Source: Acidobacteriota bacterium
GTDB taxonomy: Bacteria; Acidobacteriota; Vicinamibacteria; Vicinamibacterales; JAHECP01
DNA length: 64,000 nucleotides
Direction: 5' to 3'
Assembly: GCA_024641665.1 (NCBI GenBank)
Contig: JAHECP010000009.1
Coordinates: 3,038 to 67,037 of the forward strand
The translations under genes and the position numbers were made by a program. Of the stretch, positions 19,904 to 37,499 are shown in pieces. The notes beneath the pieces are model-generated. The model was not told where the DNA came from and made no database searches. It worked only from the letters and a program-made list of their open reading frames with translations. Each line of letters opens with the position of its first letter. Position 1 is the stretch's first letter.

Positions 19904-20067
19904 TTGACGGTCGATTCTAGCAGAACATTGTCGCCTTCCACCTAGGAACGCCGATCTCTTCTGGGACGCGGTTTCTGATGTTCGTACGCAGGGTAGCAAC
20001 CTCGGATCTGGTTCACCCGCGCCGCAGTGTTTAGAAAAGAGGGGGAACTTCAAACGGAAGTTCTCTG

Positions 20068-20273
20068 ACGAGAAGAGCTCTGAAGACGCTCGCGGCGAGT
20101 GACATTGTGAGTGACATCGCACCCGCAAAATCTGAAAACAGCGGCGAACGGAGGAAAGCGGCCGCAAAGAACGGAAGATGGCAAATGGCTGACCCCATTT
20201 CGGTTAAGCGGAAAATGCCCCTGTTTGCTGGGGTTTCTTGATCTGGCGTGACAGATTCCCACTCTCTCCGCCA
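20068..20273. repeat. Copy A of a 206-bp direct repeat (candidate structured RNA or multicopy intergenic element)
   Basis: Aligned by eye to 37281-37486: 6 mismatches, no gaps. It sits in an intergenic position. Confidence 0.9.
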
Positions 20274-20499
20274 GTCATTTTCTGTCGTTTTCCTCAATAT
20301 GCCTGCGAAAACCATCAAGAGCACGATTCTCTGACTCATCTCCATCAGTTTGCGCAGGAATGCTGAGCAAATCATCGAATTGTACCGGTCGGAATCCGCT
20401 GAGTGACATTCTCGCGTGACATTTCGGTCGTGAAAGGTCGGCTGGGTTCGGACCCCCCAAAGGGATCCAGCGGAAAGGGATTGCAAAACCATACGCATT

Positions 20500-20877
20500 A
20501 TGCGTATGGTTAAAGCAGTGGAATTCTTTGAAGCGCCGGCGTTCACGCGCCATTTCCGCGCGTATCTCGACGACGCGGGGCTGTTGGCGCTTCAACGCTT
20601 TCTGATCGACCATCCCGAGGCCGGAAAGATCATGCCTGGCACCGGTGGATTCCGGAAGTTGCGCTGGGGTGATGAAGCCCGGGGCAAGGGAAAGCGCGGC
20701 GGCCTGCGCATCGTCTATTTCTTTCTTCCCGAGGCGCACCAAGTCTGGCTGTTCACGCTGTACGGGAAGGGCGAAGCTGACGATCTGACGCCGGCGCAAA
20801 AGGCACACTTGCGCGCAGCGATCGAGGCGGAACGAGTGGCTCGTCGTGCACAACGCGGGGAGCGACGACGGAGATGA
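20500..20877 (+). CDS. Type II toxin, RelE/HigB-like
   Basis: GTGGFRKLRWGDEARGKGKRGGLRIVYFFLPEAHQVWLFTLYGKGEADDL is a typical HigB-2/RelE-family pattern. The toxin gene precedes the antitoxin gene. Confidence 0.8.
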   Translation: MRMVKAVEFFEAPAFTRHFRAYLDDAGLLALQRFLIDHPEAGKIMPGTGGFRKLRWGDEARGKGKRGGLRIVYFFLPEAHQVWLFTLYGKGEADDLTPAQKAHLRAAIEAERVARRAQRGERRRR

Positions 20878-20881
20878 CCAT

Positions 20882-21223
20882 ATGGCCACAAGGAAGCTGA
20901 AGAAGCGCGATCTCTTTGGTGAACTGATGGAGGGCGTCTCTGCCATGCGAGCCCACCGTGAGGGACGTATCACGCTGCGCTCGCATCAGGTGGAACGGTT
21001 GTCGCTGCCCCGTATCAATCAGCAAATCATTCGGAGCACGCGCGAGCGCCTGCGCATGTCGCGTCCGGCGTTTGCCTACCGCATCGGCGTCAACCCGCGC
21101 ACACTCGAGCGATGGGAACAGGGACGAAGCCGGCCGAATGACCAGGCCGCGGCGCTCATCCTGCTCGTGCGCAAGTACCCTGACACGCTCAAGCGCCTGC
21201 AGCACTTGGCGGTGGCGGAGTAA
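20882..21223 (+). CDS. XRE-family HTH antitoxin (HigA-like)
   Basis: ATG 20882 lies 4 nt after the toxin stop. IRSTRERLRMSRPAFAYRIGVNPRTLERWEQGRSRPNDQAAALI is an XRE HTH. Confidence 0.8.
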   Translation: MATRKLKKRDLFGELMEGVSAMRAHREGRITLRSHQVERLSLPRINQQIIRSTRERLRMSRPAFAYRIGVNPRTLERWEQGRSRPNDQAAALILLVRKYPDTLKRLQHLAVAE

Positions 21224-22662
21224 CCTCGGCACTGGTCCACCGTGACGCCCCACTGATGTCTGACACTCCGACCAGTTCAGCCGCTCGGGGAGCGCTTGGT
21301 GTGGTGCGGCCACGTTGCATGTATGAAACGCGATGTGCCACTCTGGAACACTCGGCGTCGGCGCTCTCCCGCCATTGCGATCCGCTGACGCTTCACCCCC
21401 ATAATGCGATCACTTCGCCGCGCGAACAGGTTGCACCGACATCACCAAGCGGGACTCCGACAACCGCCGCACCGGCGCCACGAGCCGCGCCCGCTTCGTC
21501 TGGCTGGTGTCAGGCCATCACCAAGAAGCGCACGCAAGGCTCGCTGCGCGCGCAGCCCGGCGGCATTTGCCGCCGGCAGCACGCATGCGAGTGAGGGGGA
21601 AGACCACGTCGTAGAAGCGAAGAAGACCGTGACGACGACTCTCCCAGACGTCGCCAAGGAGAGGAATGCGCGCAGCTTTGACGATCGGAGGAAGAAACAG
21701 GAGGCCTGCATGGATTGAGGCGGGCACGCACCGATCGAGCGTCCAGTCGGCGGGAGCTGCAAGATCCAGTACTGCCAGGACTGGCTCGTCGTCTTGATCG
21801 ACGGTCGTGCGCTGAATTCACTCGTGCCCTGACGGGTCGATACGTGGTGGCGATACAGGGTCTTCCGCGCATCCCGTGGGACAACGGGACGGTCCGCGAG
21901 CGCGGCACGCTCGGGGCGCTCACCGGGCCGCAGGGCGACACGGTGCGCTGCCTCCTGACGACGCACCCGGACGGGAGGGATTTTGCGGCTGGGGCGCCAA
22001 GGGGGCAGCCGCTGCGCATGCGCCAAGAACGACACGGCGCTCTTTCAAGGCGGAGAGATGGAGAACCCGTTCAAGGGTTGTGCGTGACGACTTACCCTAG
22101 AAGTGGGATGCCTTGATGGATCCGCGCGAACCGAGCCGGGTCCGGCGTATGCCGGACGATGTTGTGCTCTTTCCCGAGCGCGACGATACCTGGCGTATTC
22201 TTGTCTGGCGTCTGCTCGCGAACCGGGTTGCTCGGTGGTCCTCTGAGGCGGATCCCCTCCTCGAAGAGGGACGGATCCTCGCCCGCCAACGCCAGGTCAG
22301 TTTCTGTCTCGTGGTCGACGCCGACTCCACGTGCGGCGAGCTCATCGACAGCCATCGCCCAGGTCCGTGGCGCCGGCAGCATGGCGACCATCACTGGACG
22401 GCGTCGGTGTTCCGGATCGGAACCCGTTTTGCGGCCGGCGCGACCTCACCCGATGGACGCATGAAGACCGTCAACGCGTTCGACTCGTTATTGGAGGCGA
22501 TGCAGGCGGCCGACGGTGCGATTCCGGCGCACGTCTGCCCTGGTACCTGCGGGCTGTGGCAGGCTGAGCCGTGAGCGAAGGCTCAGGCACCTTGCGGCAG
22601 TCTGTCCAGCTCGTTAGACTGGGACGTTCCCCAACCGGCGCTGGCGCGCGCGGAGACCCCTC

Positions 22663-24330
22663 ATGTGTTCCATCCTGGGCATGCTCGAATTGAAGTCCGA
22701 TCCGGCGGCCTTGCGCGAGCAGGCACTCGCCCTCTCAAAGCGACAACGCCACCGCGGCCCCGACTGGAGCGGCATCTTCTCGTGCGATCGCGCGATCCTC
22801 GCGCACGAGCGGCTCGCGATCGTCGACATCGAGCACGGCGCCCAGCCCCTCTACGGGCCCGATCGCCGGACGGTCCTCGCGGTCAACGGTGAGATCTACA
22901 ACCACCAGCACCTCGAGCGTGCCCTCGCCCACCGGTACCCGTTCCAGACCCAGTCGGACTGTGAAGTCATCCTCGCCCTCTACGCCGAGAAGGACACGGC
23001 GTTTCTCAACGACCTCAGCGGCATCTTCGCCTTTGTGCTGTACGACGAGGCGCGCGACCGCTATCTCGTCGCACGCGACCCGATCGGCGTCATGCCGCTC
23101 TACACCGGGCGCGACGAGCAGGGCACCTTCTTCGTCGCGTCGGAGATGAAGGCGCTCATCGGGGTCTGCCGGACGATCGAGGATTTCCCGCCAGGCCACT
23201 ATCTCGACAGCGAGGTCGGCGAGGTTCGCCGCTACTACGAGCCCGCGTGGCGGGACTACGAGGCGGTGCGCGGCCGGCCGTGCGACATCGACGCCGTACG
23301 CCACGCGCTCGATCGAGCGGTCGAGCGCCAGTTGATGTGCGACGTGCCCTACGCGGTCCTGCTGTCGGGCGGCCTGGATTCCTCCGTCGTGTCCGCACTG
23401 GCGCAGCGCCACAGCAAGAACCGCGTGGAGGATGGGGGCTTGACGCCAGCCTGGTGGCCGCAGCTCCACTCGTTCGCCATCGGCCTCGATGGCTCGCCTG
23501 ACCTGGCGGCGGCCCGTGACGCGGCCCGCACCATCGGGACGATTCATCACGAGCTGCACTTCACCGTCCAGGAGGGGCTCGATGCGCTGTCGGACGTCAT
23601 CTACCACATCGAGAGCTATGACGTCACGACCGTGCGGGCCTCGACGCCGATGTACCTGCTCGCGCGCCGCATCAAGTCCGTCGGGATCAAGATGGTGTTC
23701 ACCGGCGAAGGATCGGACGAGATCTTCGGCGGGTATCTCTACTTCCACAAGGCGCCCAGCGCCCGGGAATTTCACGCCGAGACGGTGCGCAAGCTCGATC
23801 GGCTCTACAAGTACGACTGCCTGCGTGCCAACAAGTCGATGGCCGCCTGGGGGATCGAAGCGCGGGTGCCCTTTCTCGACCGCGAGTTCCTCGACGTGGC
23901 GATGGGCTTCGATGCCGCCGAGAAGATGGTGACCACGGATCGGTCGATGGAGAAGTGGATCCTCCGCAGGGCGTTCGAGGAACTGCTGCCCGCCAGCATT
24001 GTCTGGCGGCAGAAAGAGCAGTTCTCCGACGGCGTCGGCTACGCCTGGATCGACAGCCTGAAGGCGCTCGCGGAGCGTGACGTGAGCGACGACGAGCTGC
24101 GCCGCGCGCACTATCGGTTTCCGGTGAATACGCCGCAGACCAAGGAAGCGTATGCGTATCGGGCGATCTTTGACCGGCACTTCCCGGGTGACGCCGCCGC
24201 GCAGTGCGTGCCGAGCGGTCCGAGTGTCGCCTGCAGTACACCGGCCGCCGTGGCGTGGGACGCCTCGTTCGCCCAATTGACGGATCCGTCGGGCCGGGCG
24301 GTACGCGGCGTGCACCGCGAGAGCTACTGA
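22663..24330 (+). CDS. asnB: Asparagine synthase (glutamine-hydrolysing)
   Basis: It has the MCSILG N-terminal nucleophile Cys, the SGGLDSS PP-loop, is full length at 555 aa, and shows typical AsnB motifs throughout. Confidence 0.95.
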   Translation: MCSILGMLELKSDPAALREQALALSKRQRHRGPDWSGIFSCDRAILAHERLAIVDIEHGAQPLYGPDRRTVLAVNGEIYNHQHLERALAHRYPFQTQSDCEVILALYAEKDTAFLNDLSGIFAFVLYDEARDRYLVARDPIGVMPLYTGRDEQGTFFVASEMKALIGVCRTIEDFPPGHYLDSEVGEVRRYYEPAWRDYEAVRGRPCDIDAVRHALDRAVERQLMCDVPYAVLLSGGLDSSVVSALAQRHSKNRVEDGGLTPAWWPQLHSFAIGLDGSPDLAAARDAARTIGTIHHELHFTVQEGLDALSDVIYHIESYDVTTVRASTPMYLLARRIKSVGIKMVFTGEGSDEIFGGYLYFHKAPSAREFHAETVRKLDRLYKYDCLRANKSMAAWGIEARVPFLDREFLDVAMGFDAAEKMVTTDRSMEKWILRRAFEELLPASIVWRQKEQFSDGVGYAWIDSLKALAERDVSDDELRRAHYRFPVNTPQTKEAYAYRAIFDRHFPGDAAAQCVPSGPSVACSTPAAVAWDASFAQLTDPSGRAVRGVHRESY

Positions 24331-24522
24331 AGGCCGCCAAGCCAGCCGGGCCTCCACAGGCCCGGCTGCCTGGGGCGGACCCCGCTGAGCATCGGATTCC
24401 GGAAAACTGCCGGGGTAGCACGGAAAGAGGAGGGGTGATCAAGGGCGCCCACGCTCGTCGGCCCAAGGAACACCCGGCCCTGTGCGACAGCGCGGGAGCG
24501 TCTGTCACCTGAGAACTCGGCC

Positions 24523-24855
24523 ATGTTCAACGATCCTGATCTGGAAGGCGCGGCGGAAGCCGAGGACGGCGTGTTCTACGGGGGTGCCCTTCGCCGCATG
24601 ACCATCAGCCAGCGACTCGACGGGGTGCTCTGTGCGGGATGGGGAGCGATCTTCGCGGAGTGTGTCCGCGTCCTGCTCGCCAGCACTGCTTGGGTCACGA
24701 CCGACAACCTCCTCGCGCTGGTCCTCGGCACCTTTGCGGTGCTGGCGGCTATCCGCACGTTCCTTGGCTCCCAAAGCGTGGCGTGGCACCAGGGGTACCG
24801 CGCGAGTCGGGCGGACGCTGGGCTGGAGGGGTCAACACAGGCGGTCTTCGTTTAG
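24523..24855 (+). CDS. Small hypothetical membrane protein (110 aa)
   Basis: Two hydrophobic segments (VLCAGWGAIFAECVRVLLA and LLALVLGTFAVLAAI). No homology that I recognise. Confidence 0.35.
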   Translation: MFNDPDLEGAAEAEDGVFYGGALRRMTISQRLDGVLCAGWGAIFAECVRVLLASTAWVTTDNLLALVLGTFAVLAAIRTFLGSQSVAWHQGYRASRADAGLEGSTQAVFV

Positions 24856-24932
24856 CGGGTGCCCCCATCTGACGGCGTCAGATCCAAGATTGTGTACTTG
24901 TACTTTTTTCGCGAGTCTGCCATAAATCTCGT

Positions 24933-26390
24933 GTGGCAGATGAGCGCGCGCGCCGGCCCGGCGACGACCGCGACGAGCTGATTCAGCGCCAACAAGAAGA
25001 AATCGCACGGTTGCGCGAGGAGGTGGCGCGGGCGGAGCGTCAGCGCCGAGAGATGGAACGCGAACGCGATCGCTTGAAGCGGCGCAACGAGTATCTGAAG
25101 CAGCAACTCGACGCGGCGCGGCGCGCGGGCTTCCGCCAAGCCGCCCCCTTCGCGAAAGATCGTCCACAGGGCCGCGGCCGGCGGCCGGGGCGACGGCCCG
25201 GCGCGGCCTACGGGTGCCACGCGCGACGACCCATTCCGTCGCGGGTCGATGAGACCTACACCGCGGCGCTTCCCGCCGCGTGCCCCGGCTGTGGCGGGGC
25301 GATCCAGCTCACCCGCGTGGCCCCGCAGTATCACGACGATCTGCCCGTGGTGCGGCCGATCGTCCGGCGATTCGACGTGCAGGTGGGGCACTGTGTCGCC
25401 TGTGGCCGGCGCGTCCAAGGGCGGCATCCCCTTCAGACCTCGGACGCGTTGGGGGCCGCGGGCGTGCAACTGGGCCCCAGTGTCGTGACGCTCGTCATGC
25501 TCTTGCACAAGCACGCAGGGATGCCCCTTGAGAAGATCGCGACGCTGCTGCGCGAGCGCTTTGGGTTGACGGTGACGCCCGGGGGACTCGTGCACGCGCT
25601 GCATCGCGCGGCCCGCGTGGCGGCGCCGACCTATGCGGCGTTGTGCGAGCAGATTCGCGGCAGTCCGGTCGTCAGTCCCGATGAAACCGGGTGGCGCGTC
25701 GGGGCCCGGCTGCACCGGCTCTGGGCGTTTGCCACGCCGACCACCACGGTGTACGCCATTCGGCCCGGGCGCGCCTTCGACGATGCGGCGGCCATGCTGG
25801 GCGCCGACTTCGACGGCGTGCTGGTGCGCGACGGCTGGGCGCCGTATCGGCAGTTCACGAACGCGCTGCACCAGAGCTGCCTCCAGCACCTGGCTCGCCG
25901 GTGTCGCACACTGCGGGTCGACCATCCGCGCAGCCCGTGGGCGGCGCACGTGCAGGACGTCTTCACCGACGCGCTCGCGATCCGCGATCGGCGGAACGCC
26001 CGTCAGATCTCGGCCCATGGGGTCGCCGTCGCTCGCGGGCGCTTGCTCGCACGCTTGGGCCGCCTCATCGACACCGTCCCGGCCCTGCCCGCCGCGACGC
26101 GCTTCGCGGCCCATCTCGCCATCGAGTTCCCAGCCGTCCTGGGGTTCTTGTGGGACGCGCGCGTCGACGCGACCAATTGGCGGGCTGAGCACGCGATCCG
26201 TCCCGCGGTCGTCAACCGTAAGATCTGTGGCGGCAATCGCACCCCACGCGGGGCGCACACCCAAGAGGTGCTCGCCAGCGTCGTCCGGACCGCTCGTCAG
26301 CGCCACGTCGATCTCACCAGCTTCTTGACCACGGTCCTACGCGCGCCTCGTCCGACGGTGCCGACCGCCTTCAGAGTCCCGACGCAGTAG
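24933..26390 (+). mobile_element. IS66-family transposase gene (single-ORF type); the IS termini are not resolved
   Basis: The N-terminal coiled coil is ELIQRQQEEIARLREEVARAERQRREMERERDRLKRRNEYLKQQL. The zinc-finger-like motif is CPGCGG...CVACG. The DDE context is VSPDETGWRV...LVRDGWAPY...NWRAEHAIRPAVVNRKICGGNRTPRGA. GTG start. Confidence 0.9.
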
Positions 26391-26921
26391 AATCACCCGG
26401 TAAACGAAGACCCTTTTTTCTGCGACACGCAAGACCGTTTTTGATGTATAAGAGTGCGGATCCGAACGGCCAAAATGGAGGATGTTGGTTTACTGACTAA
26501 GAAAACCGCATAAACAGGATCGCCTCGTTCTCCATCCACCGTCCTAGTCCCGCTGCGACTCAAAGGTGCGGGGCCACTCCACAGAGTTCCGCGGAAGGCC
26601 GTGGTCGACCGCACCCGCCGCAGCACTTCGACCCGAAGTCCTCGCCCGCCGGGACATGTTGAAGGAGCGTGGTGAAACCGCGGCAACATCAGGGTTGTCC
26701 GGCTCAGCCGAAAGCGATATCCTTCGCATTGTGATCGCTCCACGAGCGGTCGCACATAAGCGGGCGGCCATTGGCTCACACCGTCAACCGAATAGACGCA
26801 GACGACATCGACATCCGGGTCTTCGGCGTCTTTCGCCGGCCGCAGGCCGTGATCGCCCGGGGACCGAGGCCCTCCGCCCTCTCGCATCCCTCGACGGCGA
26901 ATTGGAAACGGAGAGTCGCCG

Positions 26922-27455
26922 ATGATTCTGACTGGGGCTGCCATTCGCGAGGGTGTCACGAATGGCGAAATCATCATCGAGCCGTTCGACGAACGAGCTG
27001 TCAACCCAAACAGCTACAACTACCGCCTCGGCGACACGCTGATCCAATTGGGACACGGCCCCGCGTTCACAATTGATCGTCACGGCTACGTATTGCTGCC
27101 AGGCAACCTCTACCTGGGCCACACCGAAGAGATTCTCGGTAGCCGAAAGTACGCCATGACGCTGCTCGGTCGATCATCGACTGGCCGCTTGGGACTCTTC
27201 GTGAACATCAATGCCGACCTCGGCCACGTAGGGTCAATGGGCCAGTGGACACTCGAACTGAGCGTCGTTCAACCGCTGCGTGTTTATCCTGGGTGTCGCA
27301 TCGGACAGATCGCGTTTTGGGAAATCACTGGGCGTTCGGTCGCCTACACCGGGCGATATTCGCTCGACCTCGGGCCTGTGGCCAACCGGGATAGGAGCCT
27401 TGAGGGCGAATTACGAGATTCCCTGCAGGTCAGCATTGCGCGGGAGGAACGATGA
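26922..27455 (+). CDS. dCTP deaminase / dUTPase-fold (Dcd-Dut family) protein, paralog 1, catalytic Glu present
   Basis: MILTGAAIREGVTNGEIIIEPF...NPNSYNYRLG, GRSSTGRLGLFV and QWTLELS align with E. coli Dcd (GRSSLARLGL ... IVLEF). The Glu sits 23 residues after the conserved Arg, as for Glu138. GGAGAG SD. Confidence 0.85.
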   Translation: MILTGAAIREGVTNGEIIIEPFDERAVNPNSYNYRLGDTLIQLGHGPAFTIDRHGYVLLPGNLYLGHTEEILGSRKYAMTLLGRSSTGRLGLFVNINADLGHVGSMGQWTLELSVVQPLRVYPGCRIGQIAFWEITGRSVAYTGRYSLDLGPVANRDRSLEGELRDSLQVSIAREER

Positions 27456-29993: not shown

Positions 29994-30993
29994 AGTCGGC
30001 GAGAAGGCTCTTATTGCGAAGTTGATAAGGCCACTGTTTGACGGGGGTGAGCCGTCGCCGACTATTGGCAATGACTGCGCGATCCTAGCCAGCCATGCAG
30101 AGCATGACTTGCTTTTGTCGACGGACCGCGTGCCGGCAGATCTGATTGCGTTTCGGCTAGGGATACTTGACCACTTTGGCTTGGGTCGTTATTTGGCGTT
30201 TCTGAACATTAGCGATATCGCGGCATGTGGGGGTGAACCGGCGGCCTTGCTCCTCAATATGGGGATTCCCGCTCAGCTGCCCGTAAGCGATTTCGATGCC
30301 ATTTGCCGCGGTGTCCACGAAGTGGTACTGCATTTCGGTTGTCGCGTGGTTGGCGGTGACATCAGTTCGAGCACGGAGCTGAGTTTGTCGGCTACCTCGG
30401 TAGGATTTGTGCCAAAGGGACGGGCGCTCACACGGAGCGGTGCGCGGCCCGGCGACAAGGTATTCATCACCAGAGAACTTGGCCTCACGCCAGCCGCCTT
30501 CGGCTATTTCCTTTCACAGGAGTGCAGGCTTGAACTGAGCGAAGCCGACGTCGAGCGGCTCAAGCGTCAATTCACAGACATTGTTCCGCTGGTCGATGTC
30601 GGCCGTTGGTTGCGGAATTCCGGCCGCTGCACGGCGTGTATGGATAATACGGACGGTGTCGCTCAGTCCTTTTCGGAGATTGGAGCGGAAAGCGGTGTAG
30701 CGATCGTTCTAGAACGAGAGCTCTTCAGCGTACCAGAACTCGTGACTTCGATCGCTGTCGCATCGGGCGTCGATCCCCTCAATCTGGCCCTCGGTCCAGG
30801 TGCGGATCTTTCTCTTGTGGGCACCCTTGCCAGTGATTGTGAACCTCCGGCCAATGTGGAGCCGTCCGCCAGAATTCGGGTAGTCGGCCGCGTCGAGGAG
30901 GGTCGTGGCGTACACCTCGCCGACGGCTCGGGTCGCCACCCGTTCGCGATCAAAGGGTGGGATTATTTTGTCGGGGAGATCAGCCGTCGATGA
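29971..30993 (+). CDS. ThiL/PurM-superfamily (AIR-synthase-related) ATP-utilising enzyme
   Basis: ORF-track 29689..30993 trimmed to ATG 29971, which overlaps the previous gene by 23 nt. GEKALIAKLIRPLF...IGNDCAIL...STDRV...NISDIAACGGEPAALLLNMGIP...VVGGDISSS...RSGARPGDKVFITRELG parallels thiamine-monophosphate kinase motifs. Confidence 0.8.
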   Translation: MTDQTVSEVGEKALIAKLIRPLFDGGEPSPTIGNDCAILASHAEHDLLLSTDRVPADLIAFRLGILDHFGLGRYLAFLNISDIAACGGEPAALLLNMGIPAQLPVSDFDAICRGVHEVVLHFGCRVVGGDISSSTELSLSATSVGFVPKGRALTRSGARPGDKVFITRELGLTPAAFGYFLSQECRLELSEADVERLKRQFTDIVPLVDVGRWLRNSGRCTACMDNTDGVAQSFSEIGAESGVAIVLERELFSVPELVTSIAVASGVDPLNLALGPGADLSLVGTLASDCEPPANVEPSARIRVVGRVEEGRGVHLADGSGRHPFAIKGWDYFVGEISRR

Positions 30994-31247
30994 AGTTGCC
31001 GACCCGATGCAGACCGAGTGATTAGCCGGGGAATGATTGCCCGGATCTGAGAAGACGAAGAAGACAACGTGGTCAGTCGGCTCGGATCCTTTCCCGGATG
31101 GGCTGCGGAAGGGCCGGGCCGGCCGCGGCTGTGGCCAGCGCCGCCTTGGATGAGCTCGAGCGCGGTCCATGGGGTACCAAGATTCCCACGGTGGTCCCGT
31201 CGTGGCGGTGGGCCTGGACCCGATCGCCGGGTCGACGATCGGCGTAC

Positions 31248-32138
31248 CTAGTTCAGCTTGCTCCGCTCCTCCTCGAGCCATCCGCGCATCCTGTCGATCG
31301 ATTCCTCAATGTCGCGGATGCGGCTCTCCTCCTCGTCCATCCACTCCTGGCATCGCTCCTTGAACTTGTCGCTCCAAGCTGACTCATAGTCACTTTCGAG
31401 CTTCGACAGATGTGCCTTCGCCTTTTCGAGAGCGTTTTCTGCCTTGTCCAGCTTGCCTTCCAGCTTTTCGATATTGGCCTCGATCCGGGCGCGCCTGTTC
31501 TCCTGGCGCTCCTGCCACTGACGCCGGCGTTCCTCGTGAAAGCGGTTCTTGGCTTCCTTCCACCTGGCCCAGGCATCGTTCAGGCGATCCTGCGCCTTGT
31601 TCAGGGCTTCGTAGGCCGCGTGCCTGTCCGCAGGAAGCATCACGTCCTTGGATTCGCCGAAGAACGCCCATGCCTCTTTCATCGCGGCGCTGCAGTTCTT
31701 CAAGTCTTCGTGGACTTCATCGAGTTGCTCCAGACCCATCACGGAGCGCAGAGCATTTTCGAGCAGCGTCAACGGCCCGAGCACCACAGAGGCGATCATG
31801 CGTTCCAGGTCCGTGACGGGCCGCGTGCCGCCCAGCTTCGATTCGAGGCTGCCACGGGCACGTTCGCTGCGTTCGACCTTTTCCTGCCACGCGCGCTGGC
31901 GCTTCTCGCGCTCCTCCTTCTCGCGCGCGCTGCGCTCACGGGCCTGGTCGATCAGCTCGTTCAGGCGCTGCCAAGCGGCCTGCCTGTCTTCAAGCCTGGG
32001 ATAGCGCACGCCTTTGAAGCCTGCCTTGACGTCCCCGACCAGGGACCACAGCCCCTTCCAGTAGCCCTTTTGCGGCGCGTCGTCCTCCACGCACGCCTGA
32101 AGCGCGTCGATCATCCTGTCGAGTTCGCTGTAGTCCAT
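31248..32138 (-). CDS. Hypothetical coiled-coil protein (296 aa)
   Basis: Long heptad-like, charged helical stretches (RERSAREKEEREKRQRAWQEKVERSERA; IEANIEKLEGKLDKAENALEKAKAHLSKLESDYE). Clean coding composition. Confidence 0.6.
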   Translation of the reverse strand: MDYSELDRMIDALQACVEDDAPQKGYWKGLWSLVGDVKAGFKGVRYPRLEDRQAAWQRLNELIDQARERSAREKEEREKRQRAWQEKVERSERARGSLESKLGGTRPVTDLERMIASVVLGPLTLLENALRSVMGLEQLDEVHEDLKNCSAAMKEAWAFFGESKDVMLPADRHAAYEALNKAQDRLNDAWARWKEAKNRFHEERRRQWQERQENRRARIEANIEKLEGKLDKAENALEKAKAHLSKLESDYESAWSDKFKERCQEWMDEEESRIRDIEESIDRMRGWLEEERSKLN

Positions 32139-32395
32139 GCGATCTCACCCGCCTGCGAGGCCGGTCCTAGTCTAGATCAGGCCGGCTGCGCGCCCCGTAT
32201 CAGAACGAACCGGGAACGTCAGCGCCGGGCGGCGCGGCAGGAAGGGACGGGAGCCGATATGGCTCGCATTTGGCAGAGGATGGGTGCTGGTGAGTGAAAA
32301 GGGGTGTCGGAGCCTTCTCTCTCCCGGGTGGGCTACGGAGGGGCCACCTGGGGCGCGCCTTCCGCCTCGGCATGGAATGAGAGAGAATTCCGCCT

Positions 32396-32941
32396 GTGAC
32401 TCTCTCTGACGAGACGCGCCTGGAAGCGATGAGCCTGGGGCTGAGGCGCATCGTTGAGGATCTCGGGGACGGCGCGTTTGACGGCCTGCGCTGCCGGCCC
32501 GACTCCGAGCGCTATCGGGATGTCCCGCAGACGACATGGGTCGAGCTGGAAGGGTTGGGTTACGTACGGGCCGCTCACGCCGTCGGCAGCCCAGGCTACC
32601 GGCTCACCGGCGCGGGGTGGATCGCGGCGCTGCGAGTCTCCGGGGTGTTTGACTCGGAGAAGCTGCGCGCCCGGGCCGTCACGCTGCGGGCGGCGCTGAA
32701 GGACCTCGTCAAGGGACGCCCGTTGAGCGGCGCCATCACGGACTTCTACGAGCTTTCTGCAAGAACGGGACTGCCGTTTGAGTGGATTGCAGGCGCGCTG
32801 GAGTCGCGTCTGTTGCAGCACCTGTGGAGCTGGGATCATCTCGATGTGGCCCTGGAGCATGGCGGGCGCGTCATTCGCGTGCCCGCGCGTTTCGGCTCGA
32901 AACGCCCGCTGTACGAAGCCGGCCCCTTCCCGGACCCGTAG
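32396..32941 (+). CDS. Hypothetical protein (181 aa)
   Basis: ORF-track entry with a GTG start. G/C-rich third positions and non-repetitive sequence. No family recognised. Confidence 0.55.
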   Translation: MTLSDETRLEAMSLGLRRIVEDLGDGAFDGLRCRPDSERYRDVPQTTWVELEGLGYVRAAHAVGSPGYRLTGAGWIAALRVSGVFDSEKLRARAVTLRAALKDLVKGRPLSGAITDFYELSARTGLPFEWIAGALESRLLQHLWSWDHLDVALEHGGRVIRVPARFGSKRPLYEAGPFPDP

Positions 32942-33344
32942 GGCGGGTGCGAGGCGGAGAGTTTGCGGCGCGCGGTGCAGGGATGAGAATCAGCGATCTT
33001 TTGTTCTTCGCGCACTTAAGGGTCGGCTTTCTTCGCAGGCTCTTGCAGGAGCGGCCCTTCAAGGCATCCCGCAAGAGTAAGTCCGAGAGGGTCGTTCCGC
33101 CTTCACCAAGGCTGCGGCGTGACGGGTCCGCCTTGCGCTGAACCCCTGAAAAGGGCTACGGCGCGATAAGTCCGCTTGATGGATTGACCTCACGCACGCG
33201 GCCTTCGCCCGCGCCCCACGATTTCGTGCTATGATTGCTCCACCTTGCGCGAGCGGGCATTCTCCCGCTCCCCATAGCGCAGGCTCTGCGAAGCCGTCCA
33301 ACGGTTTCCCGTGTTCCGGGTCACTAAGACCCAGGGAGGGCCTC

Positions 33345-33863
33345 ATGGCCATTGTCCGCGCCGATCCGTCCGCCGGTCCTGCTCCCCTCTCACCTCCAAG
33401 CGCTCCTGAGCGCATCACGGCCGCGTTCGAAAAGCTCACCGTCTCGGCCAAGACCATCAACGACGCCTCCGGCGAGCTCGCGAAGCCTGTCGCGTCGCTC
33501 GAGAAGGCCCTGCAGCGCCTGAATGTCGGCGTCGCCTGCTGGACGAAGATCAGCGGCGGCAGCGACGAATACGATTACTGGAGCCAGGATGTCGGCTATG
33601 CCAGGGTCAAGGGCGAATGGTGCCTGGCCATCCGCACCGTCAGCGGCAACGAAGGCGACCCGGAACGGGAAAGCCAGGAGATCTGGCCGTTCAACGAAGC
33701 ACCGCGCTATCTGCGGATCAAGGGCGTCGACAAGCTGCCTGACCTGATCGAGGCGCTCATCGAGGCGACCAACGCCACGGCCAAGCGGCTGAGCGAGAAG
33801 GTCGCCCCGGCACAAGATCTCGCGGCGGCCGTCAACGCGCTCGTCAACCCGAAGAAGAAGTAG
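33345..33863 (+). CDS. Hypothetical protein (172 aa)
   Basis: ORF-track 33231..33863 trimmed to ATG 33345 (GGGAGGG SD). No family recognised. Confidence 0.55.
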   Translation: MAIVRADPSAGPAPLSPPSAPERITAAFEKLTVSAKTINDASGELAKPVASLEKALQRLNVGVACWTKISGGSDEYDYWSQDVGYARVKGEWCLAIRTVSGNEGDPERESQEIWPFNEAPRYLRIKGVDKLPDLIEALIEATNATAKRLSEKVAPAQDLAAAVNALVNPKKK

Positions 33864-33869
33864 GGCGTG

Positions 33870-34037
33870 ATGACGAGCTTGCTGATCGCAGGCGTCGTGT
33901 GTCTTGTCGCAAGCGCCGTCGTCCTGTGCGCTCGCGGGCTCATCGCCATGGCGATGCGGCGCTACCCCCGCGTGAAGGCCGGAGTCCATGTCGGGCGGTC
34001 CGGCTTCTATATCGAGGCGGATGACGGGCGCGAGTAG
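33870..34037 (+). CDS. Possible 55-aa single-TM peptide
   Basis: Below the ORF-track size cutoff. Own translation: MTSLLIAGVVCLVASAVVLCARGLIAMAMRRYPRVKAGVHVGRSGFYIEADDGRE. It starts 7 nt after the previous stop. Confidence 0.3.
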   Translation: MTSLLIAGVVCLVASAVVLCARGLIAMAMRRYPRVKAGVHVGRSGFYIEADDGRE

Positions 34038-34307
34038 AGTGGTCGCATCGGCGTTACACCCGGCGCGCCGGAGCCAGGGCGCGTGCTGCCTTGAGCGGGT
34101 TTTCAGGGGATTGTGGACGAGCGGGCGCTGTAGCATCTGCCGCAGGGTGCGCTCGTCTGGCGGTTAGTCGTGGGCCCTGGATGTTAACGGCCCACCTGCG
34201 TGGTTTGGATCGCGGGCGAGGGGCTTCGGGAGGCCGTGGCAGGCTTACCCCAGCGGCTCGCTGGCGGCCCTATGCCCTGGGTATTCCCCACTCTGGTGGA
34301 GGTCCCG

Positions 34308-34532
34308 ATGGCGATTGTGGAAGAGGGGCAGCTGAAGGAGTCATTTCGCGGGTTTCACAACCGCGATACGGTGTTTGAATTCTACGGCGGCGGCAAGTGG
34401 CGGCAGAACGAGTATAAGTACTTCTACTACTACGCCTACATGCCGCAGGCGCGCGTCGTGGATGACCAGGGCGGATACCGCCTGGAGGTGGACGGCATGG
34501 GTGAGAGCGTGGAGGTCGTGCGGGTGCGGTAG
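34308..34532 (+). CDS. Hypothetical 74-aa aromatic-rich protein
   Basis: ORF-track 34200..34532 trimmed to ATG 34308 (GGAGG lies 7 nt upstream). Sequence: MAIVEEGQLKESFRGFHNRDTVFEFYGGGKWRQNEYKYFYYYAYMPQARVVDDQGGYRLEVDGMGESVEVVRVR. It ends 18 nt upstream of the AbiJ-like gene. Confidence 0.5.
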   Translation: MAIVEEGQLKESFRGFHNRDTVFEFYGGGKWRQNEYKYFYYYAYMPQARVVDDQGGYRLEVDGMGESVEVVRVR

Positions 34533-34549
34533 CAGGAGGTGGCAGAGCC

Positions 34550-35476
34550 ATGCGTTACCCGCCAAACCAGATTACCGAGCCGACGCGGCGGAACATCGCG
34601 GATGAGTTGCTGTTGCGCGGCATGCCGCCGAACGGCCGGCTGAACGAAGTCGAGTTCTTCTCCCGCCTGTTTGATCTGAAGGCGCTGCCGACGCGCGACT
34701 ACCGCACACACGAGTTTCCCGACATGGCGGCCGACCTGTGGCAGCACCGCGTGAACAATGCCGACTGGGATGATGGGTGGTGGTGGACGGACGATCGGCT
34801 GGCCCTGCTGCATGCGCCCGACGAGGCGTTCCTGCGCTTCCTTGCGGAGATGGTTCATCCAATCGTGCGCCCTGACCCTGCGGAGCGGGAAGCGTATCTG
34901 GAGGTTTTCAACCGGCATCTGGCGGCTGAAGGGTGGGAGATCGGACCGGTGAGCCGGATTGGCGCGCATCCCGTCTATGGCGGCAGGCGGCTGGAGCAGA
35001 TGCCTCCGGCCGTGGTCGCCGAGGCGAAGGCACTGGCCCAAACGCTCGGGGATTATGTCGCGCGGCAGGTTACGCGGATGGAGGCGGCCCTGCCCGGAGA
35101 TCTCGAGCTGGCGATCGGCACCGCCAAGGAGTTTATGGAGACCGTCTGCCGGACGATTCTTGAAGAGCGCGGGATTGGACTTCCTGGGGACGATGATCTG
35201 CCGGCTCTGGTCAAGCTGACGGTCAGGAGCCTGCCGGTGGTGCCCGACGGGATCGAGGATAAGGCAAAGTGGGAGGGAACGGTCGTTCGGCTGGTGAACA
35301 ATCTCTCGTCGGCGGGACAGAGTCTTGCGGAGCTGCGCAACGCCTTCGGAACCGGGCATGGCAAGGAAGCGGGCCACAAGGGACTGGACACCCATCACGC
35401 GAAGCTCATCGTCCACCTCGCAACCACTGTCGGCGTCTTCTTGTACGAGGCGCATGAGAGGAATCCGGTTGCGTAG
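34550..35476 (+). CDS. Abortive-infection protein, AbiJ-like N-terminal region plus an Abi_C (HEPN-type) C-terminal domain
   Basis: The C-terminal LAIGTAKEFMETVCRTILE...LSSAGQSLAELRNAFGTGHGK contains the R-x4-6-H HEPN/Abi_C motif (RNAFGTGH). Confidence 0.8.
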   Translation: MRYPPNQITEPTRRNIADELLLRGMPPNGRLNEVEFFSRLFDLKALPTRDYRTHEFPDMAADLWQHRVNNADWDDGWWWTDDRLALLHAPDEAFLRFLAEMVHPIVRPDPAEREAYLEVFNRHLAAEGWEIGPVSRIGAHPVYGGRRLEQMPPAVVAEAKALAQTLGDYVARQVTRMEAALPGDLELAIGTAKEFMETVCRTILEERGIGLPGDDDLPALVKLTVRSLPVVPDGIEDKAKWEGTVVRLVNNLSSAGQSLAELRNAFGTGHGKEAGHKGLDTHHAKLIVHLATTVGVFLYEAHERNPVA

Positions 35477-35714
35477 CGTGGAGGCCGGTGCGGCGCGCGG
35501 GTTTTCGGGAGCGACCGCCAAGGCATCCCACAAGCGTGAGACCGGGGGGCTGCTCCTACTCCGCTACTTACGCAGCTACGGCCGCCTCTTTCGCAGTGAT
35601 TCGATCTCACGCGGCGCTGTGTCACTCCAGGCCGGCGTGGCGGGTAGCGTCTTGAAGACAGCGGCCGTGGCGGTGTCGCTCGGCGGTGGCCGAGGCGGCA
35701 GGGTGATGCTGGCT

Positions 35715-36536
35715 CTACCGTGGCCTCGTCTTGAGGGCTGTCAACAGGAGCTCACATACCAATCCTGCGGACTGAGTGCTGAGCCTACCCTCCAGAAGCG
35801 TCGCAACGCTTGGCTCCGGCCGACCATGCCCGTCACCCCGATCGTTCCTGAGGCGGTTTACGGCGCACGCTAACAGAAACAGCGCCTGTTGCAGCGCCCG
35901 GTACGGGTCCTTGTCCAGCTTTGCGTCTGAACCCGAGAGACCCAGGGAATAAAACGCGCTGAAGAGCGCCGTGGGAAAGTTGGAGGCCGGACCCACGGTC
36001 GCGTAGTGGCCGGTGGTTTCCTTGAGAACGTGCCTGACCGTCGCCTCTTCGAGGTTCTTGGCAGTGCCGATCAAGAGCTCCGCGTCACCCGACCCCGTTT
36101 GCGCGCGGCGCACATAGGCCCACAGCGCCTCCGTCAGGTCAGTCCCCTCAAGGTTCTCAAGAACGGTCGGCCGGAGATTGCCTTCCGGATCAAGGTCAAA
36201 CCCGACCCGCCGAAAGGCGGCGCGGAGCTGCGCGACAGTCTCGGCCCCTGGGCAATCCGGGGTGCCGAGCCGGAAGCCGCCGGAGGCCCGCACCTGGTTG
36301 ACGAAGAGCTCGACAAACCGCGCTCCCTCGTCAGGCTGGTGGTCTATCGCATGGGCGAGAATCATGCGGAGGCGTTTGACCTTGCCCCGCTGCACGCCTT
36401 CCTGGACATCAGGCTCGGCGTCCGACAGGCGCGCCCGTGCCACCATGCGCGAGATCTCGTCGTGCGAGGGACCGCGCTGATCGACGAAACGCGGAAGAAG
36501 GGTGATCAGTTCTTCCGTGAGCATGTATTCCCGCAT
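35715..36536 (-). CDS. Abi_C (HEPN-type) domain protein
   Basis: ORF-track 35715..36578 trimmed to ATG 36536. LLIGTAKNLEEATVRHVLKE...LLACAVNRLRNDRGDGHGR carries the same Abi_C pattern as the convergent neighbour. Confidence 0.75.
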   Translation of the reverse strand: MREYMLTEELITLLPRFVDQRGPSHDEISRMVARARLSDAEPDVQEGVQRGKVKRLRMILAHAIDHQPDEGARFVELFVNQVRASGGFRLGTPDCPGAETVAQLRAAFRRVGFDLDPEGNLRPTVLENLEGTDLTEALWAYVRRAQTGSGDAELLIGTAKNLEEATVRHVLKETTGHYATVGPASNFPTALFSAFYSLGLSGSDAKLDKDPYRALQQALFLLACAVNRLRNDRGDGHGRPEPSVATLLEGRLSTQSAGLVCELLLTALKTRPR

Positions 36537-36764
36537 ATTTGTGCCGCGTCGGGCGCGTGATGACAAACCATCATGCATGGCCGACGCAGCGTTGGCTGCG
36601 ACGTCGCAGAGAAACCAGAAACCGCTGCGCTAGCCGAGGACCAACGCGACCACCGTGTGCCTGTTCCGCGGCCAACGGCATGACTGAGGTCGTATCGAGC
36701 ACAGACACCGAGGCGTTCAGCCTGGACGGGAAGCTGACAGCTCGATTCTCTCTAACGCCGGATC

Positions 36765-37073
36765 CTATTTTGCCACAGCCTTCTTGCGCTTAGCCCAATA
36801 CGCTTTCATGCGTTTGCTCACCGCTCGCTTCTGGGCAGCGCTCATCGTCCGGCTGGCGCGCTTCGTCGTCTTCTTCACGGCACGGGCCGCACGGCGGCCG
36901 ACTCCCCTTCCGAGGCTTGAGAGCGCGCCTTCCACGGCCGTAATCTGCCGATCGAGGCGGGTGCGCTCGGCGCGGAGTTCGTTAAGGGCTTTCTCTAGCG
37001 TCGATGCGACGTTTGGCAAGTGGGGCTCCTTTTCAAGGACAGATGACGGGCCGACAAGCAGCCGTTGCGGCAC
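36765..37073 (-). CDS. Hypothetical 102-aa protein with a coiled-coil segment and a very basic Lys/Arg/Ala tail
   Basis: LEKALNELRAERTRLDRQITAVEGAL is followed by RRAARAVKKTTKRASRTMSAAQKRAVSKRMKAYWAKRKKAVAK, a histone-H1-like tail. Confidence 0.5.
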   Translation of the reverse strand: MPQRLLVGPSSVLEKEPHLPNVASTLEKALNELRAERTRLDRQITAVEGALSSLGRGVGRRAARAVKKTTKRASRTMSAAQKRAVSKRMKAYWAKRKKAVAK

Positions 37074-37280
37074 TTATCTTACCCGGGTGCGCGGTGCGGC
37101 CGGTGCGGGATTTTGGCATTGGCACCAGCGAGAGCGGCGGCGACGTCGCGTCCGCGAGGCAAGGCGCCCTGACGCCTGGTCGGCAGCACGGCGCAGAATC
37201 AGCCAGCGGGTCGGTCTTTGCGCGCTGGCCGTCTCATCGCTCCTCCCCGCTGAGCGAGAGATCCGCGACTGCCTCTTCTA

Positions 37281-37486
37281 ACGAGAAGAACTCTGAAGAC
37301 GCTCGCGGCGAGTGACATTGTGAGTGACATCCCGCCCGCAAAATCTGAAAACAGCGGCGAACGGAGGAAAACGGCCGCAAAGAATGGAAGATGGCAAATG
37401 GCTGACCCCATTTCGGTTAAGCGGAAAATGCCCCTGTGTGCTGGGGTTTCTTGATCTGGCGTGACAGATTCCCACTCTCTCCGCCA
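37281..37486. repeat. Copy B of the 206-bp direct repeat
   Basis: 200/206 identical to 20068-20273, same orientation, intergenic. Confidence 0.9.
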
Positions 37487-37499
37487 CACCAATCTGATT

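What the first reader, a model, noticed from the sequence alone, without database searches (positions are those of the whole stretch)
20068..37486. 206-bp direct repeat pair (97% identical) bracketing a 17-kb accessory block
Seen:
- 20068-20273 and 37281-37486 align without gaps and differ at 6 positions. Their flanks are unrelated.
- Both copies are intergenic. On the minus strand each lies about 165-210 nt upstream of a small basic DNA-binding-type gene: HU-like (19496-19903) and the basic-tail protein (36765-37073).
- The element contains internal complementarity: tggcg...cgcca near one end, and gcggc-N15-gccgc followed by tgttttcagatttt on the minus strand. It also contains a tandem gagtgacat motif.
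- The DNA between the copies holds the TA pair, asnB, the IS66 transposase, the Dcd/HD-TIR/ThiL cluster and the Abi_C genes.
Inference: this is either a structured small RNA or 5'-leader family, a multicopy intergenic repeat, or recombination scars delimiting an island. There is no integrase inside.
Basis: partly seen in the sequence, partly recalled or inferred. Interest (0 to 1): 0.6.

Follow-up and report, generated by a model that had tools for sequence, protein, structure and literature searches.

The report
Island attachment-site repeats at a tRNA
The two 206-bp repeats are attachment-site junctions: each is an integrase-binding arm followed by the last 20 bases of a tRNA gene. They were left when genomic islands inserted one after another into a tRNA gene of a soil Acidobacteriota bacterium, which is a well-known process seen here in a little-studied group.

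Summary
Window 20064-20273 and 37277-37486 are co-oriented, 97% identical, and have unrelated flanks.

They are not an RNA. Each copy ends in GATTCCCACTCTCTCCGCCA, the 3' end of a tRNA, matching 19 of 20 bases of a genuine tRNA-SeC in a related MAG.

Upstream of that end lies a conserved ~220-nt arm. It carries two GAGTGACAT direct repeats 12 bp apart and A-tracts phased at ~10 bp.

About 37 full-length relatives were found. All are in Acidobacteriota/Vicinamibacterales MAGs or unnamed metagenome contigs. They always point the same way within a locus. Where a tRNA gene is visible, they lie 2-8 kb downstream of an intact tRNA-Gln or tRNA-SeC on the same strand.

Complete relatives carry an excisionase-like gene and a tyrosine integrase whose stop codon is 20 nt from the tRNA.

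Copy A is followed by a conserved second arm (20276-20433). Copy B is followed by 72% GC chromosome.

So copy B is the terminal attR. Copy A is the junction between two tandem islands. The 17-kb block is an integrase-less, att-flanked island of the CIME type.

The sRNA option is not supported.

This is a new member of a known kind. One open twist is that such integrase-less cassettes may be moved in trans.

The parts
20034..20253 (+). P arm of the left-hand island (copy A). It is the distal arm of an attP-type site. The family-level homology reaches about 30 nt further left than the A/B repeat boundary at 20064.
   Evidence: nhmmer family model hit at 20053-20298, E=4e-58. Family alignment of 36 homologues.
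20097..20117 (+). A pair of direct GAGTGACAT repeats 12 bp apart, in the P arm of copy A. I infer that these are arm-type integrase-binding sites.
   Evidence: This is the most conserved block of the family. The same 21-mer retrieved the relatives.
20120..20250 (+). A-tract region phased at about 10 bp (GCAAA-type units) between the arm sites and the core. I infer an intrinsic bend or a docking region for an HU/IHF-type bending protein.
   Evidence: The AAA periodicity peaks at 9.5-10.5 bp, with z up to 26 against shuffles across 35 homologues.
20254..20273 (+). Core: GATTCCCACTCTCTCCGCCA. This is a tRNA 3' end fragment (T-loop half, T-stem, acceptor strand, G73, CCA) of the tRNA-SeC type.
   Evidence: 19/20 identical to the 3' end of the genuine tRNA-SeC of L110, which lies next to selD/selB/selA.
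20274..20433 (+). P' arm, the left end of the 17-kb island. It contains a TTTTCCTCA block, a GAGxxx...TCTC inverted repeat, and a second pair of arm-type sites (GAGTGACAT-TCTC-GCGTGACAT, 20401-20422).
   Evidence: P'-arm HMM hit at 20276-20433, E=7e-30. It aligns with the sequences that directly follow genuine tRNA-SeC/tRNA-Gln genes and internal junctions in L027, L110, L080, L057, L067 and L078.
20274..37276 (.). Body of the integrase-less 17-kb island. Cargo: an HTH-antitoxin TA pair, asnB, IS66, Dcd-Dcd-676aa-AIRS, AbiJ/Abi_C genes, and a 102-aa basic protein.
   Evidence: Pfam and PADLOC. GC is 56-72% per 1-kb bin, mostly near 60%, against about 72% for the chromosome. No tyrosine recombinase was detected.
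37277..37466 (+). P arm of the 17-kb island (copy B), including the arm-site pair 37310-37330.
   Evidence: (E=7e-54).
37467..37486 (+). Core of copy B: the displaced tRNA 3' end fragment. This is the terminal attR crossover region and the right-hand boundary of the island array.
   Evidence: No P' arm follows it. GC rises to 0.72-0.75 from about 38 kb.
37496..37610 (.). Tandem array of a 19-nt unit, 6.2 copies (GATCCTTGTCCGTTCGGAC), on the chromosomal side of attR. It is not part of the repeat family and its function is unknown.
   Evidence: TRF. The unit was not found in any other fetched locus.

Best explanation
Each 206-bp repeat is the distal junction of an integrative element that targets the 3' end of a tRNA gene. 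That junction is attR, made of a P arm plus the core.

The autonomous relatives encode an HTH_17 excisionase-like protein and a ~370-aa tyrosine integrase. Their attP has three parts:
- a ~160-nt P' arm;
- a 17-20-nt core identical to the tRNA 3' end;
- a ~220-nt P arm carrying two GAGTGACAT direct repeats and A-tracts phased at ~10 bp.

Integration into the tRNA regenerates the tRNA at the proximal junction. It leaves 'P arm + old tRNA 3' end' at the distal junction. Repeated integration at the regenerated tRNA pushes older islands outward, so that co-oriented copies bracket successive islands.

In the window, the tRNA lies off the left edge. It is of the SeC type by similarity; tRNA-Ser cannot be excluded. 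Copy A is the junction between a left island (at least 20 kb) and the 17-kb island. Copy A therefore consists of the left island's P arm, the core, and the 17-kb island's P' arm. Copy B is the terminal attR abutting the chromosome.

The 17-kb block has both att sites but no integrase, so it is a cis-mobilizable-element (CIME)-type island. It could be excised by an integrase supplied in trans, or deleted by RecA recombination between the 210-bp repeats.

Shown:
- the sequence identity of the core to the tRNA end;
- the family-wide position and orientation of the copies;
- integrase adjacency to the tRNA in relatives;
- the presence of a P' arm after copy A and its absence after copy B.

Inferred:
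- that GAGTGACAT is the arm-type binding site;
- that the A-tracts act by bending DNA;
- that the sites are still recombination-competent.
For: 1. **Core equals a tRNA end.** The window core is 19/20 identical to the end of the tRNA-SeC of L110, which lies beside selD/selB/selA. The second family variant, TCCCTGCCTCCCAGCCA, is identical to the end of the tRNA-Gln(CTG) genes in L031, L037 and L080.
2. **Family size and orientation.** There are 48 family hits in 36 loci, 37 of them full length. All named records are Acidobacteriota/Vicinamibacterales. In 9 of 9 multi-copy loci every copy has the same orientation.
3. **Position relative to the tRNA.** In all 5 loci where a tRNA and a copy are both visible, the tRNA is upstream on the same strand, 2.3-8 kb away.
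4. **Integrase relatives.** The L002 integrase gene stops 20 nt from the core. Three of three homologues looked up are convergent with a tRNA-Gln. In L133 and L135 the stop codon lies 20 nt from the tRNA 3' end. In L134 it lies about 20 nt from a duplicated core fragment, with the tRNA itself about 125 nt away. Each is preceded by an HTH_17 gene. L135 shows the whole element: tRNA, then int-xis, then about 8 kb, then P arm + core.
5. **P' arm.** It follows copy A (E=7e-30), genuine tRNAs and internal junctions. It does not follow copy B, L027 copy 4 or L008 copy b.
6. **GC step.** GC rises from about 0.60 to about 0.72 immediately right of copy B.
7. **A-tract phasing.** Shown.
8. **Published precedent.** Tandem accretion and CIMEs are described in PMC5704250. 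[quoted passage not shown]
Against: - The intact tRNA gene and any integrase for this particular array are not in the window: ARAGORN finds 0 tRNAs and no integrase was found. The assignment therefore rests on homology to other genomes.
- The integrases seen are all tRNA-Gln-linked. No tRNA-SeC-linked integrase was recovered.
- Binding of the integrase to GAGTGACAT is untested. The first ~65 residues of the integrase match no Pfam arm-binding domain.
- In L031 the tRNA-Gln is followed by a flank of a different type from the P' arm, so not every locus fits the simplest scheme.
- 97% identity between two arms that belong to different islands needs either two closely related donors or gene conversion.
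Confidence: 0.85

Rival explanations
1. The element is a structured small RNA, or a 5' leader, transcribed on the minus strand towards the HU-like and basic-tail genes.
For: Both window copies lie 165-210 nt upstream of small basic-protein genes on the minus strand. A terminator-like hairpin lies at 20063-20045(-), just outside copy A. Conservation over about 250 nt in many genomes could suggest an RNA.
Against: - No Rfam hit.
- MFE z-scores are about 0 on both strands.
- RNAalifold on 36 homologues gives -13 and -18 kcal/mol, with no helices supported on either strand.
- Neighbouring genes are not conserved and occur in either orientation.
- Some copies lie between convergent genes (L008 copy b).
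- The conserved 3' block is explained exactly as a tRNA fragment.
Confidence: 0.03
2. The element is a plain dispersed repeat or MITE-like mobile element that spreads by transposition. The 17-kb bracket is then a coincidence, or the result of homologous recombination only.
For: The element is multicopy in related genomes. The short-read assembly of the same strain breaks inside it (L001 ends at window 37320).
Against: - There are no terminal inverted repeats and no inverted partner of the conserved end anywhere in the window.
- I saw no target-site duplication at either copy when reading the sequence.
- Orientation is strictly the same within each locus (9/9).
- Copies lie downstream of tRNA genes.
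- The terminal 17-20 nt are identical to the tRNA 3' end.
- An integrase gene abuts the core in autonomous relatives.
Confidence: 0.04
3. The copies are integron-type attC sites, and the genes between them are integron cassettes.
For: The arrays are co-oriented repeats separating small accessory modules, many of them TA pairs. L027 has 4 copies in 8 kb and L008 has a similar layout.
Against: - I saw no imperfect-palindrome (R''-L''/L'-R') architecture when reading the family consensus, and the element does not fold better than shuffles.
- The length, 250-400 nt, exceeds that of attC sites.
- Cargo genes run in both orientations.
- No tyrosine recombinase is encoded near the integrase-less arrays. 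The integrases found beside the tRNAs were not typed against IntI.
- The conserved end is a tRNA fragment.
Confidence: 0.02

Closest known systems
Tandem accretion of integrative elements at a tRNA/tmRNA gene, leaving cis-mobilizable elements (CIMEs). Examples: ICESt1/ICESt3 relatives in Streptococcus, reviewed in PMC5704250; Dehalococcoides ssrA genomic islands, PMC3146451.
   Same: - Co-oriented direct repeats of the 3' end of the target RNA gene bound successive islands downstream of that gene.
- The distal repeat marks the island/chromosome border.
- Some islands keep both att sites but have no integrase.
- The cargo is accessory and defence-type.
   Different: - The host phylum is Acidobacteriota/Vicinamibacterales.
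- The conserved repeat is far longer than the 20-bp tRNA/tmRNA fragment, because about 220 nt of P arm (and about 160 nt of P' arm) are conserved across islands and genomes.
- Dehalococcoides uses a serine recombinase, whereas here it is a tyrosine integrase.
- Very small integrase-less units (1.2-3.6 kb, e.g. a single TA pair) with both arms intact are frequent.
Lambda-type attP organisation (arm-type sites, bending-protein sites, core). This comparison rests on my own knowledge of the lambda Int system.
   Same: - Tandem direct-repeat motifs lie far from the crossover, on both arms.
- A bend-prone region lies between the arm sites and the core.
- The int gene is adjacent to the P'-side junction and is transcribed towards it, with an Xis-like HTH gene just upstream.
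   Different: - The arm motif (GAGTGACAT) and its geometry are specific to this family.
- Bending appears to be partly intrinsic (phased A-tracts).
- Binding has not been tested.
- The integrase N-terminus has no recognised arm-binding Pfam domain.
selC (tRNA-Sec)-associated pathogenicity islands of Enterobacteria. This comparison rests on my own knowledge.
   Same: tRNA-Sec is used as an integration hotspot by islands that carry P4-like tyrosine integrases.
   Different: The integrase lineage and host are unrelated. Here the same arm family has two alternative cores, tRNA-SeC and tRNA-Gln (15 versus 16 copies).
Integron gene-cassette arrays
   Same: Arrays of small, promoter-independent accessory modules (often TA pairs) are separated by co-oriented recombination sites. 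The cassettes themselves lack a recombinase.
   Different: The recombination site here is an attP-like duplex site with arms and a tRNA core, not a folded single-stranded attC. The anchor is a tRNA gene, not attI/intI. Cargo orientation is not fixed.

Membership tests
att junctions of tRNA-targeting tyrosine-integrase integrative elements | The direct repeat at the island border is identical to the 3' end of a tRNA gene. | tested here: met
   Window cores 20254-20273 and 37467-37486 match the L110 tRNA-SeC 3' end at 19/20 positions. The Gln-type cores of relatives are identical to tRNA-Gln 3' ends.
att junctions of tRNA-targeting tyrosine-integrase integrative elements | An intact target tRNA gene lies at the proximal end of the array, on the same strand. 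| tested here: inconclusive
   There is no tRNA in the window, and the island continues to position 1. The feature is met in relatives L031, L037, L080, L110 and L135.
att junctions of tRNA-targeting tyrosine-integrase integrative elements | A cognate integrase (and a directionality factor) is encoded next to the tRNA-proximal junction. | tested here: not met
   No integrase was found in window 1-37.5 kb or in the 17-kb block. The feature is met only in autonomous relatives L002, L133, L134 and L135.
att junctions of tRNA-targeting tyrosine-integrase integrative elements | A compositional or synteny break lies exactly at the distal repeat. | tested here: met
   GC is about 0.60 left of 37.5 kb and 0.72-0.75 to the right. 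The P' arm is absent after copy B.
att junctions of tRNA-targeting tyrosine-integrase integrative elements | Excision to a circle and regeneration of attB. | not testable with these tools
   This needs reads or PCR across 20273|37487 and 37486|20274.
Cis-mobilizable element (CIME) | The element retains attL and attR but lacks integration and transfer genes (definition in PMC5704250). | tested here: met
   The core plus P' arm lies at 20254-20433 and the P arm plus core at 37277-37486. No recombinase or conjugation gene was found by Pfam or phmmer.
Cis-mobilizable element (CIME) | The element is actually mobilised together with, or by, a neighbouring integrase-encoding element. | not testable with these tools
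   This needs the rest of the genome and an experiment.
Structured small RNA / riboswitch-like leader | A conserved secondary structure with covariation, or a match to a curated RNA family. | tested here: not met
   Rfam gave no match. Folding z-scores are about 0. RNAalifold finds no consensus structure on either strand.
Integron attC site | An imperfect palindrome with R''/L''-L'/R' boxes, and an IntI integrase at the array head. | tested here: not met
   I saw no palindromic architecture in the consensus, and the element does not fold better than shuffles. No recombinase is encoded near the integrase-less arrays. IntI typing was not done.
MITE / transposon end | Terminal inverted repeats and target-site duplications. 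| tested here: not met
   No inverted copy of the conserved end exists in the window. I saw no TSD at either copy when reading the sequence.

The most novel reading that the evidence does not exclude
The integrase-less units may not be decay products. They may instead be a cassette class that is selected for. Each unit would be a small cargo module (often a single TA pair or defence gene, 1.2-17 kb) that keeps a complete two-armed attP, about 400 bp with arm-type sites on both arms. A trans-acting integrase of the ~370-aa family would capture, stack and release these modules at tRNA-Gln or tRNA-SeC. That would make this a tRNA-anchored, integron-like gene-capture platform in Vicinamibacterales.

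Supporting hints:
- In 4 of 4 pattern-sampled loci with a visible tRNA, the tRNA-proximal unit has no integrase, and in 3 of those 4 it has a complete P' arm.
- L027 stacks three units with unrelated cargo. Their P arms are only 68-74% identical, which points to independent acquisitions, while their P' arms are 82-86% identical.
- The same TA module (78% nt identity) sits behind a P' arm in two different MAGs.
Probability: 0.3. Interest if true: 0.65.

Novelty: new member of a known kind. Interest (0 to 1): 0.4.

Why it matters
This result turns an unexplained repeat into a precise map of an island array. The right-hand island border is at 37486. There is an internal junction at 20254-20273. 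The target tRNA is predicted just beyond the left edge of the window.

It also gives a ready-made marker for delimiting genomic and defence islands in Vicinamibacterales, an abundant but barely studied soil lineage. The marker is the GAGTGACAT-N3-GAGTGACAT motif plus a tRNA-Gln or tRNA-SeC core.

The unusually well-conserved 400-bp attP has clear arm sites and intrinsic bends. That makes the integrase system experimentally tractable.

If the integrase-less mini-cassettes prove to be mobilised in trans, the system would be a second, tRNA-anchored route to integron-like stacking of TA and defence genes.

Tried and rejected
- **Rfam.** Searches at the gathering threshold and at E<=10 gave nothing relevant.
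- **Single-sequence folding.** Both strands fold no better than shuffles.
- **RNAalifold.** On 36 homologues, no consensus structure appears on either strand.
- **BLAST.** The repeat and the 23-kb region have no match in the plasmid or phage collections.
- **First genome scan.** The 25-mer GGCTGACCCCATTTCGGTTAAGCGG found nothing.
- **Viral-contig scan.** The arm motif gave only chance hits in low-GC contigs.
- **Exact-protein look-ups.** Look-ups for the HU-like protein, the 92-aa protein, asnB and the first ORF of the window found nothing. Only AbiJ found the same strain, in Logan contig L001, which is 100% identical to window 26052-37320 and breaks inside the IS66 copy and inside the repeat.
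- **Transposon-end idea.** The conserved end finishes in ...CA-3', but no inverted partner exists, so I rejected it.
- **CsrA-sponge idea.** I considered this because of GGA motifs in the A-tract region. By my reading, the GGA motifs are not conserved.
- **Coding potential of ORF 20050-20262(-).** All frames show similar tblastn similarity and indels are frequent, so it is not coding.
- **Conserved neighbouring protein.** All-against-all clustering of ORFs from the family loci found none.
- **Integrase remnants.** tblastn found none in the window.
- **Sigma-70 promoter scan.** Around copy A it found none.

Full report
**Observation**

The repeat is real. MAFFT and the repeat finder align window 20064-20273 with 37277-37486 without gaps, at 97% identity over 210 nt. 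The flanks on both sides are unrelated. Both copies are intergenic. The window has no tRNA gene. GC is about 0.60 from position 1 to about 37.5 kb and 0.72-0.75 from about 38 kb onward, so copy B sits exactly on a compositional boundary.

**RNA hypothesis**

Rfam gives nothing at the gathering threshold, and nothing relevant at E<=10. The element folds no better than dinucleotide shuffles on either strand, with z = 0.03 and -0.11. After I collected 36 homologues, RNAalifold found only -13 kcal/mol (plus strand) and -18 kcal/mol (minus strand) for about 270 columns, with no helices supported by covariation. A structured RNA is not supported.

**Finding relatives**

Plasmid and phage collections have no match. 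One 25-mer from the repeat is absent from the species-representative genomes.

The 21-mer GAGTGACATTGTGAGTGACAT hit seven metagenome contigs. Five of them are homologous to the repeat over 190-250 nt.

The relaxed pattern GAGTGACATNNNGAGTGACAT hit more than 118 genome loci. An nhmmer profile separates chance hits (Bacteroidales, Firmicutes and others) from true relatives. The true relatives are 48 hits in 36 loci, 37 of them full length. Every named record among them is an Acidobacteriota or Vicinamibacterales MAG.

A core-genome protein of the window (a TonB-dependent receptor) has its best named relatives in Acidobacteriota/Vicinamibacterales at 72-73% identity. One higher-ranked named hit, at 76% identity, is labelled Betaproteobacteria and is probably a misbinned MAG. 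The window is therefore from that lineage.

A short-read assembly of the same strain (Logan contig L001) is 100% identical to window 26052-37320. It breaks inside the IS66 copy and inside the repeat.

**Anatomy of the family**

From left to right on the window + strand:
1. A variable stretch.
2. A nearly invariant GAGTGACAT-N3-GAGTGACAT pair.
3. About 130 nt of GCAAA-type A-tracts. Their spacing peaks at 9.5-10.5 bp (z up to 26 against shuffles). Shared ancestry inflates the z value, but the phasing is conserved.
4. A sharply conserved end, after which homology stops.

The end comes in two versions...TCCCACCCTCTCCGCCA (15 copies) and ...TCCCTGCCTCCCAGCCA (16 copies).

**The key result**

Those ends are tRNA 3' ends. 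ARAGORN finds tRNA-Gln(CTG) in L031, L037 and L080, and tRNA-SeC(TCA) in L110. The L110 tRNA-SeC lies next to selD, selB and selA.

The last 17-20 nt of these genes are identical to the two end variants. The window's GATTCCCACTCTCTCCGCCA matches the L110 selC end at 19 of 20 positions.

In each of these loci the tRNA lies upstream of the element copies, on the same strand, 2.3-3.7 kb from the first copy. In all nine loci with two or more copies, every copy has the same orientation. By chance this would happen about 1 time in 4,000.

So each copy is an arm followed by a displaced tRNA 3' end. This is the classical signature of the distal junction (attR) of an element integrated into a tRNA gene.

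**The integrase**

Its stop codon is 20 nt from the core, and it is transcribed towards the core.

It belongs to a large family: 4043 proteins at E<=1e-20, typically about 370 aa, with Phage_int_SAM_3 plus Phage_integrase domains.

All three homologues whose contigs I fetched are convergent with a tRNA-Gln(CTG) gene, and each is preceded by an overlapping HTH_17 (excisionase-like) gene. In L133 and L135 the stop codon is 20 nt from the tRNA 3' end. In L134 it is about 20 nt from a duplicated core fragment, and the tRNA itself is about 125 nt away.

L135 shows a complete element: tRNA-Gln, then int-xis, then about 8 kb, then a full P arm + core on the tRNA strand.

**The second arm**

The DNA just right of copy A (20274-20433) is homologous to two kinds of sequence elsewhere:
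- the DNA that directly follows the genuine tRNA-SeC of L110 and the tRNA-Gln of L080 and L037;
- the DNA that follows internal copies in L027 (three times), L008, L057, L067, L078 and L110.

It contains a TTTTCCTCA block, a short GAGAGAC...TCTCTC inverted repeat, and, about 128 nt from the core, a second pair (G/A)AGTGACAT-N4-5-CGTGACAT. In the window this pair is at 20401-20422.

A profile of this P' arm scores E=7e-30 at window 20276-20433. It finds nothing after copy B, nothing after the last copy of L027, and nothing after L008 copy b, which abuts rsmH.

The architecture is therefore: tRNA | P'...cargo...P+core | P'...cargo...P+core | chromosome.

**Interpretation of the window**

Copy B (37277-37486) is the terminal attR of the array. 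The chromosome starts at 37487, first with an unrelated 19-nt x 6 tandem array and then with a MacB/FtsX-like gene.

Copy A is the junction between a left island (from before position 1 to 20273) and the 17.2-kb island (20274-37486). The left island carries glycosyltransferases, an E1/JAB-like protein, an AAA protein, an IS630-like DDE gene and the HU-like gene.

Neither visible island encodes an integrase. The 17-kb block therefore meets the published definition of a cis-mobilizable element: attL and attR are retained, while integration and transfer genes are absent (PMC5704250).

Tandem islands that each end in a repeat of the 3' end of the target RNA gene, some of them without integration modules, are documented for Dehalococcoides ssrA (PMC3146451).

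**What is inferred rather than shown**

- GAGTGACAT is the arm-type integrase site. The integrase has about 65 residues ahead of the SAM-like domain, but they match no Pfam arm-binding domain.
- The phased A-tracts substitute for, or assist, HU/IHF-type bending.
- The window's target is tRNA-SeC rather than a tRNA-Ser with a similar acceptor end.
- The sites are still active.

It is not a family trait, because no neighbouring protein family is conserved.

**Open twist**

Integrase-less units are the rule in the unbiased sample. In four of four pattern-sampled loci with a visible tRNA, the tRNA-proximal unit has no integrase. Three of those four start with a full P' arm.

L027 stacks three units of 1.2, 1.7 and 3.6 kb. 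Two of them hold pairs of small, TA-sized ORFs and the third holds a Ser/Thr kinase. Their P arms are only 68-74% identical to each other, which argues for independent acquisition, while their P' arms are 82-86% identical. One of its TA modules recurs at 78% nt identity behind a P' arm in L008.

This pattern is compatible with simple decay. It is also compatible with a cassette-like, trans-mobilised lifestyle, which I rate at about 0.3.

**Verdict**

The 'island border / recombination scar' reading is right and is now mechanistically specified. The RNA reading is rejected. This is a new member of a known kind (tRNA-targeted tandem islands with a CIME) in an understudied phylum, and it has an unusually well-defined two-armed att site.

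Noticed in passing
window 1523-1809 and 2665-2951: A second direct-repeat pair: about 270-287 nt, 97-99% identical, 1142 bp apart. It brackets a minus-strand gene for an ECF-type sigma-70 fused to a CarboxypepD_reg domain (1835-2707). The flanks are unrelated. The plus-strand ORFs that overlap the repeats have no Pfam match.
   Followed up: partly
window 37496-37610: A 19-nt unit, GATCCTTGTCCGTTCGGAC, repeated 6.2 times directly on the chromosomal side of copy B, upstream of the MacB/FtsX-like gene. The unit contains a near-palindrome (GTCCGTTCGGAC). It was not found in any other fetched locus.
   Followed up: partly
window 26922-30993: Two adjacent dCTP-deaminase-like genes, a 676-aa protein with no Pfam domain, and an AIRS/ThiL-like gene form a co-oriented cluster inside the 17-kb island. 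None matches a PADLOC defence model, so this could be an undescribed nucleotide-targeting defence module.
   Followed up: partly
window 4495-7502: A ThiF/E1-like protein with a JAB domain (PADLOC E1-E2/JAB hits) lies next to a Cdc48-type AAA protein (PADLOC PDC-M37B/DolB-like) in the left island. This is a ubiquitin-like conjugation-type conflict system.
   Followed up: partly
L003 700-1090 and L005 840-1210 (metagenome contigs): Long tandem arrays with a 12-nt period built from the same GAGTGACATTGT unit as the arm sites, but without the rest of the element. Their origin and any relation to the integrase system are unknown.
   Followed up: no
L134 11129-11310; L029 1205-1310: A ~100-nt mini-unit (GCCT(T)CGCTC...GGCACGAATCCCTGCCTCCC) lies between a tRNA-Gln or core and a second copy of the core. 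It may be the footprint of an almost completely deleted island. A similar right-flank family follows the cores in L008 copy b, L064 and L095.
   Followed up: no
L133/L135 about 10995-11000 (int gene 3' end, about +143 from the tRNA end): In integrase-bearing elements, the codons just before the catalytic tyrosine read CTGAGTGACTGACATCTCC on the tRNA strand. This sits at the same distance from the core as the P'-arm GAGTGACAT pair of integrase-less units. The P' arm of the cassettes may therefore descend from the 3' end of int.
   Followed up: no
L031 7400-7457 versus L017 7039-7100: The flank after the L031 tRNA-Gln (AGTTCGAAACCCGGG...) is not a P' arm. It matches the flank after the L017 element copy, so it could be the native attB flank. 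If so, the two element copies further downstream in L031 do not fit the simple tandem scheme.
   Followed up: no
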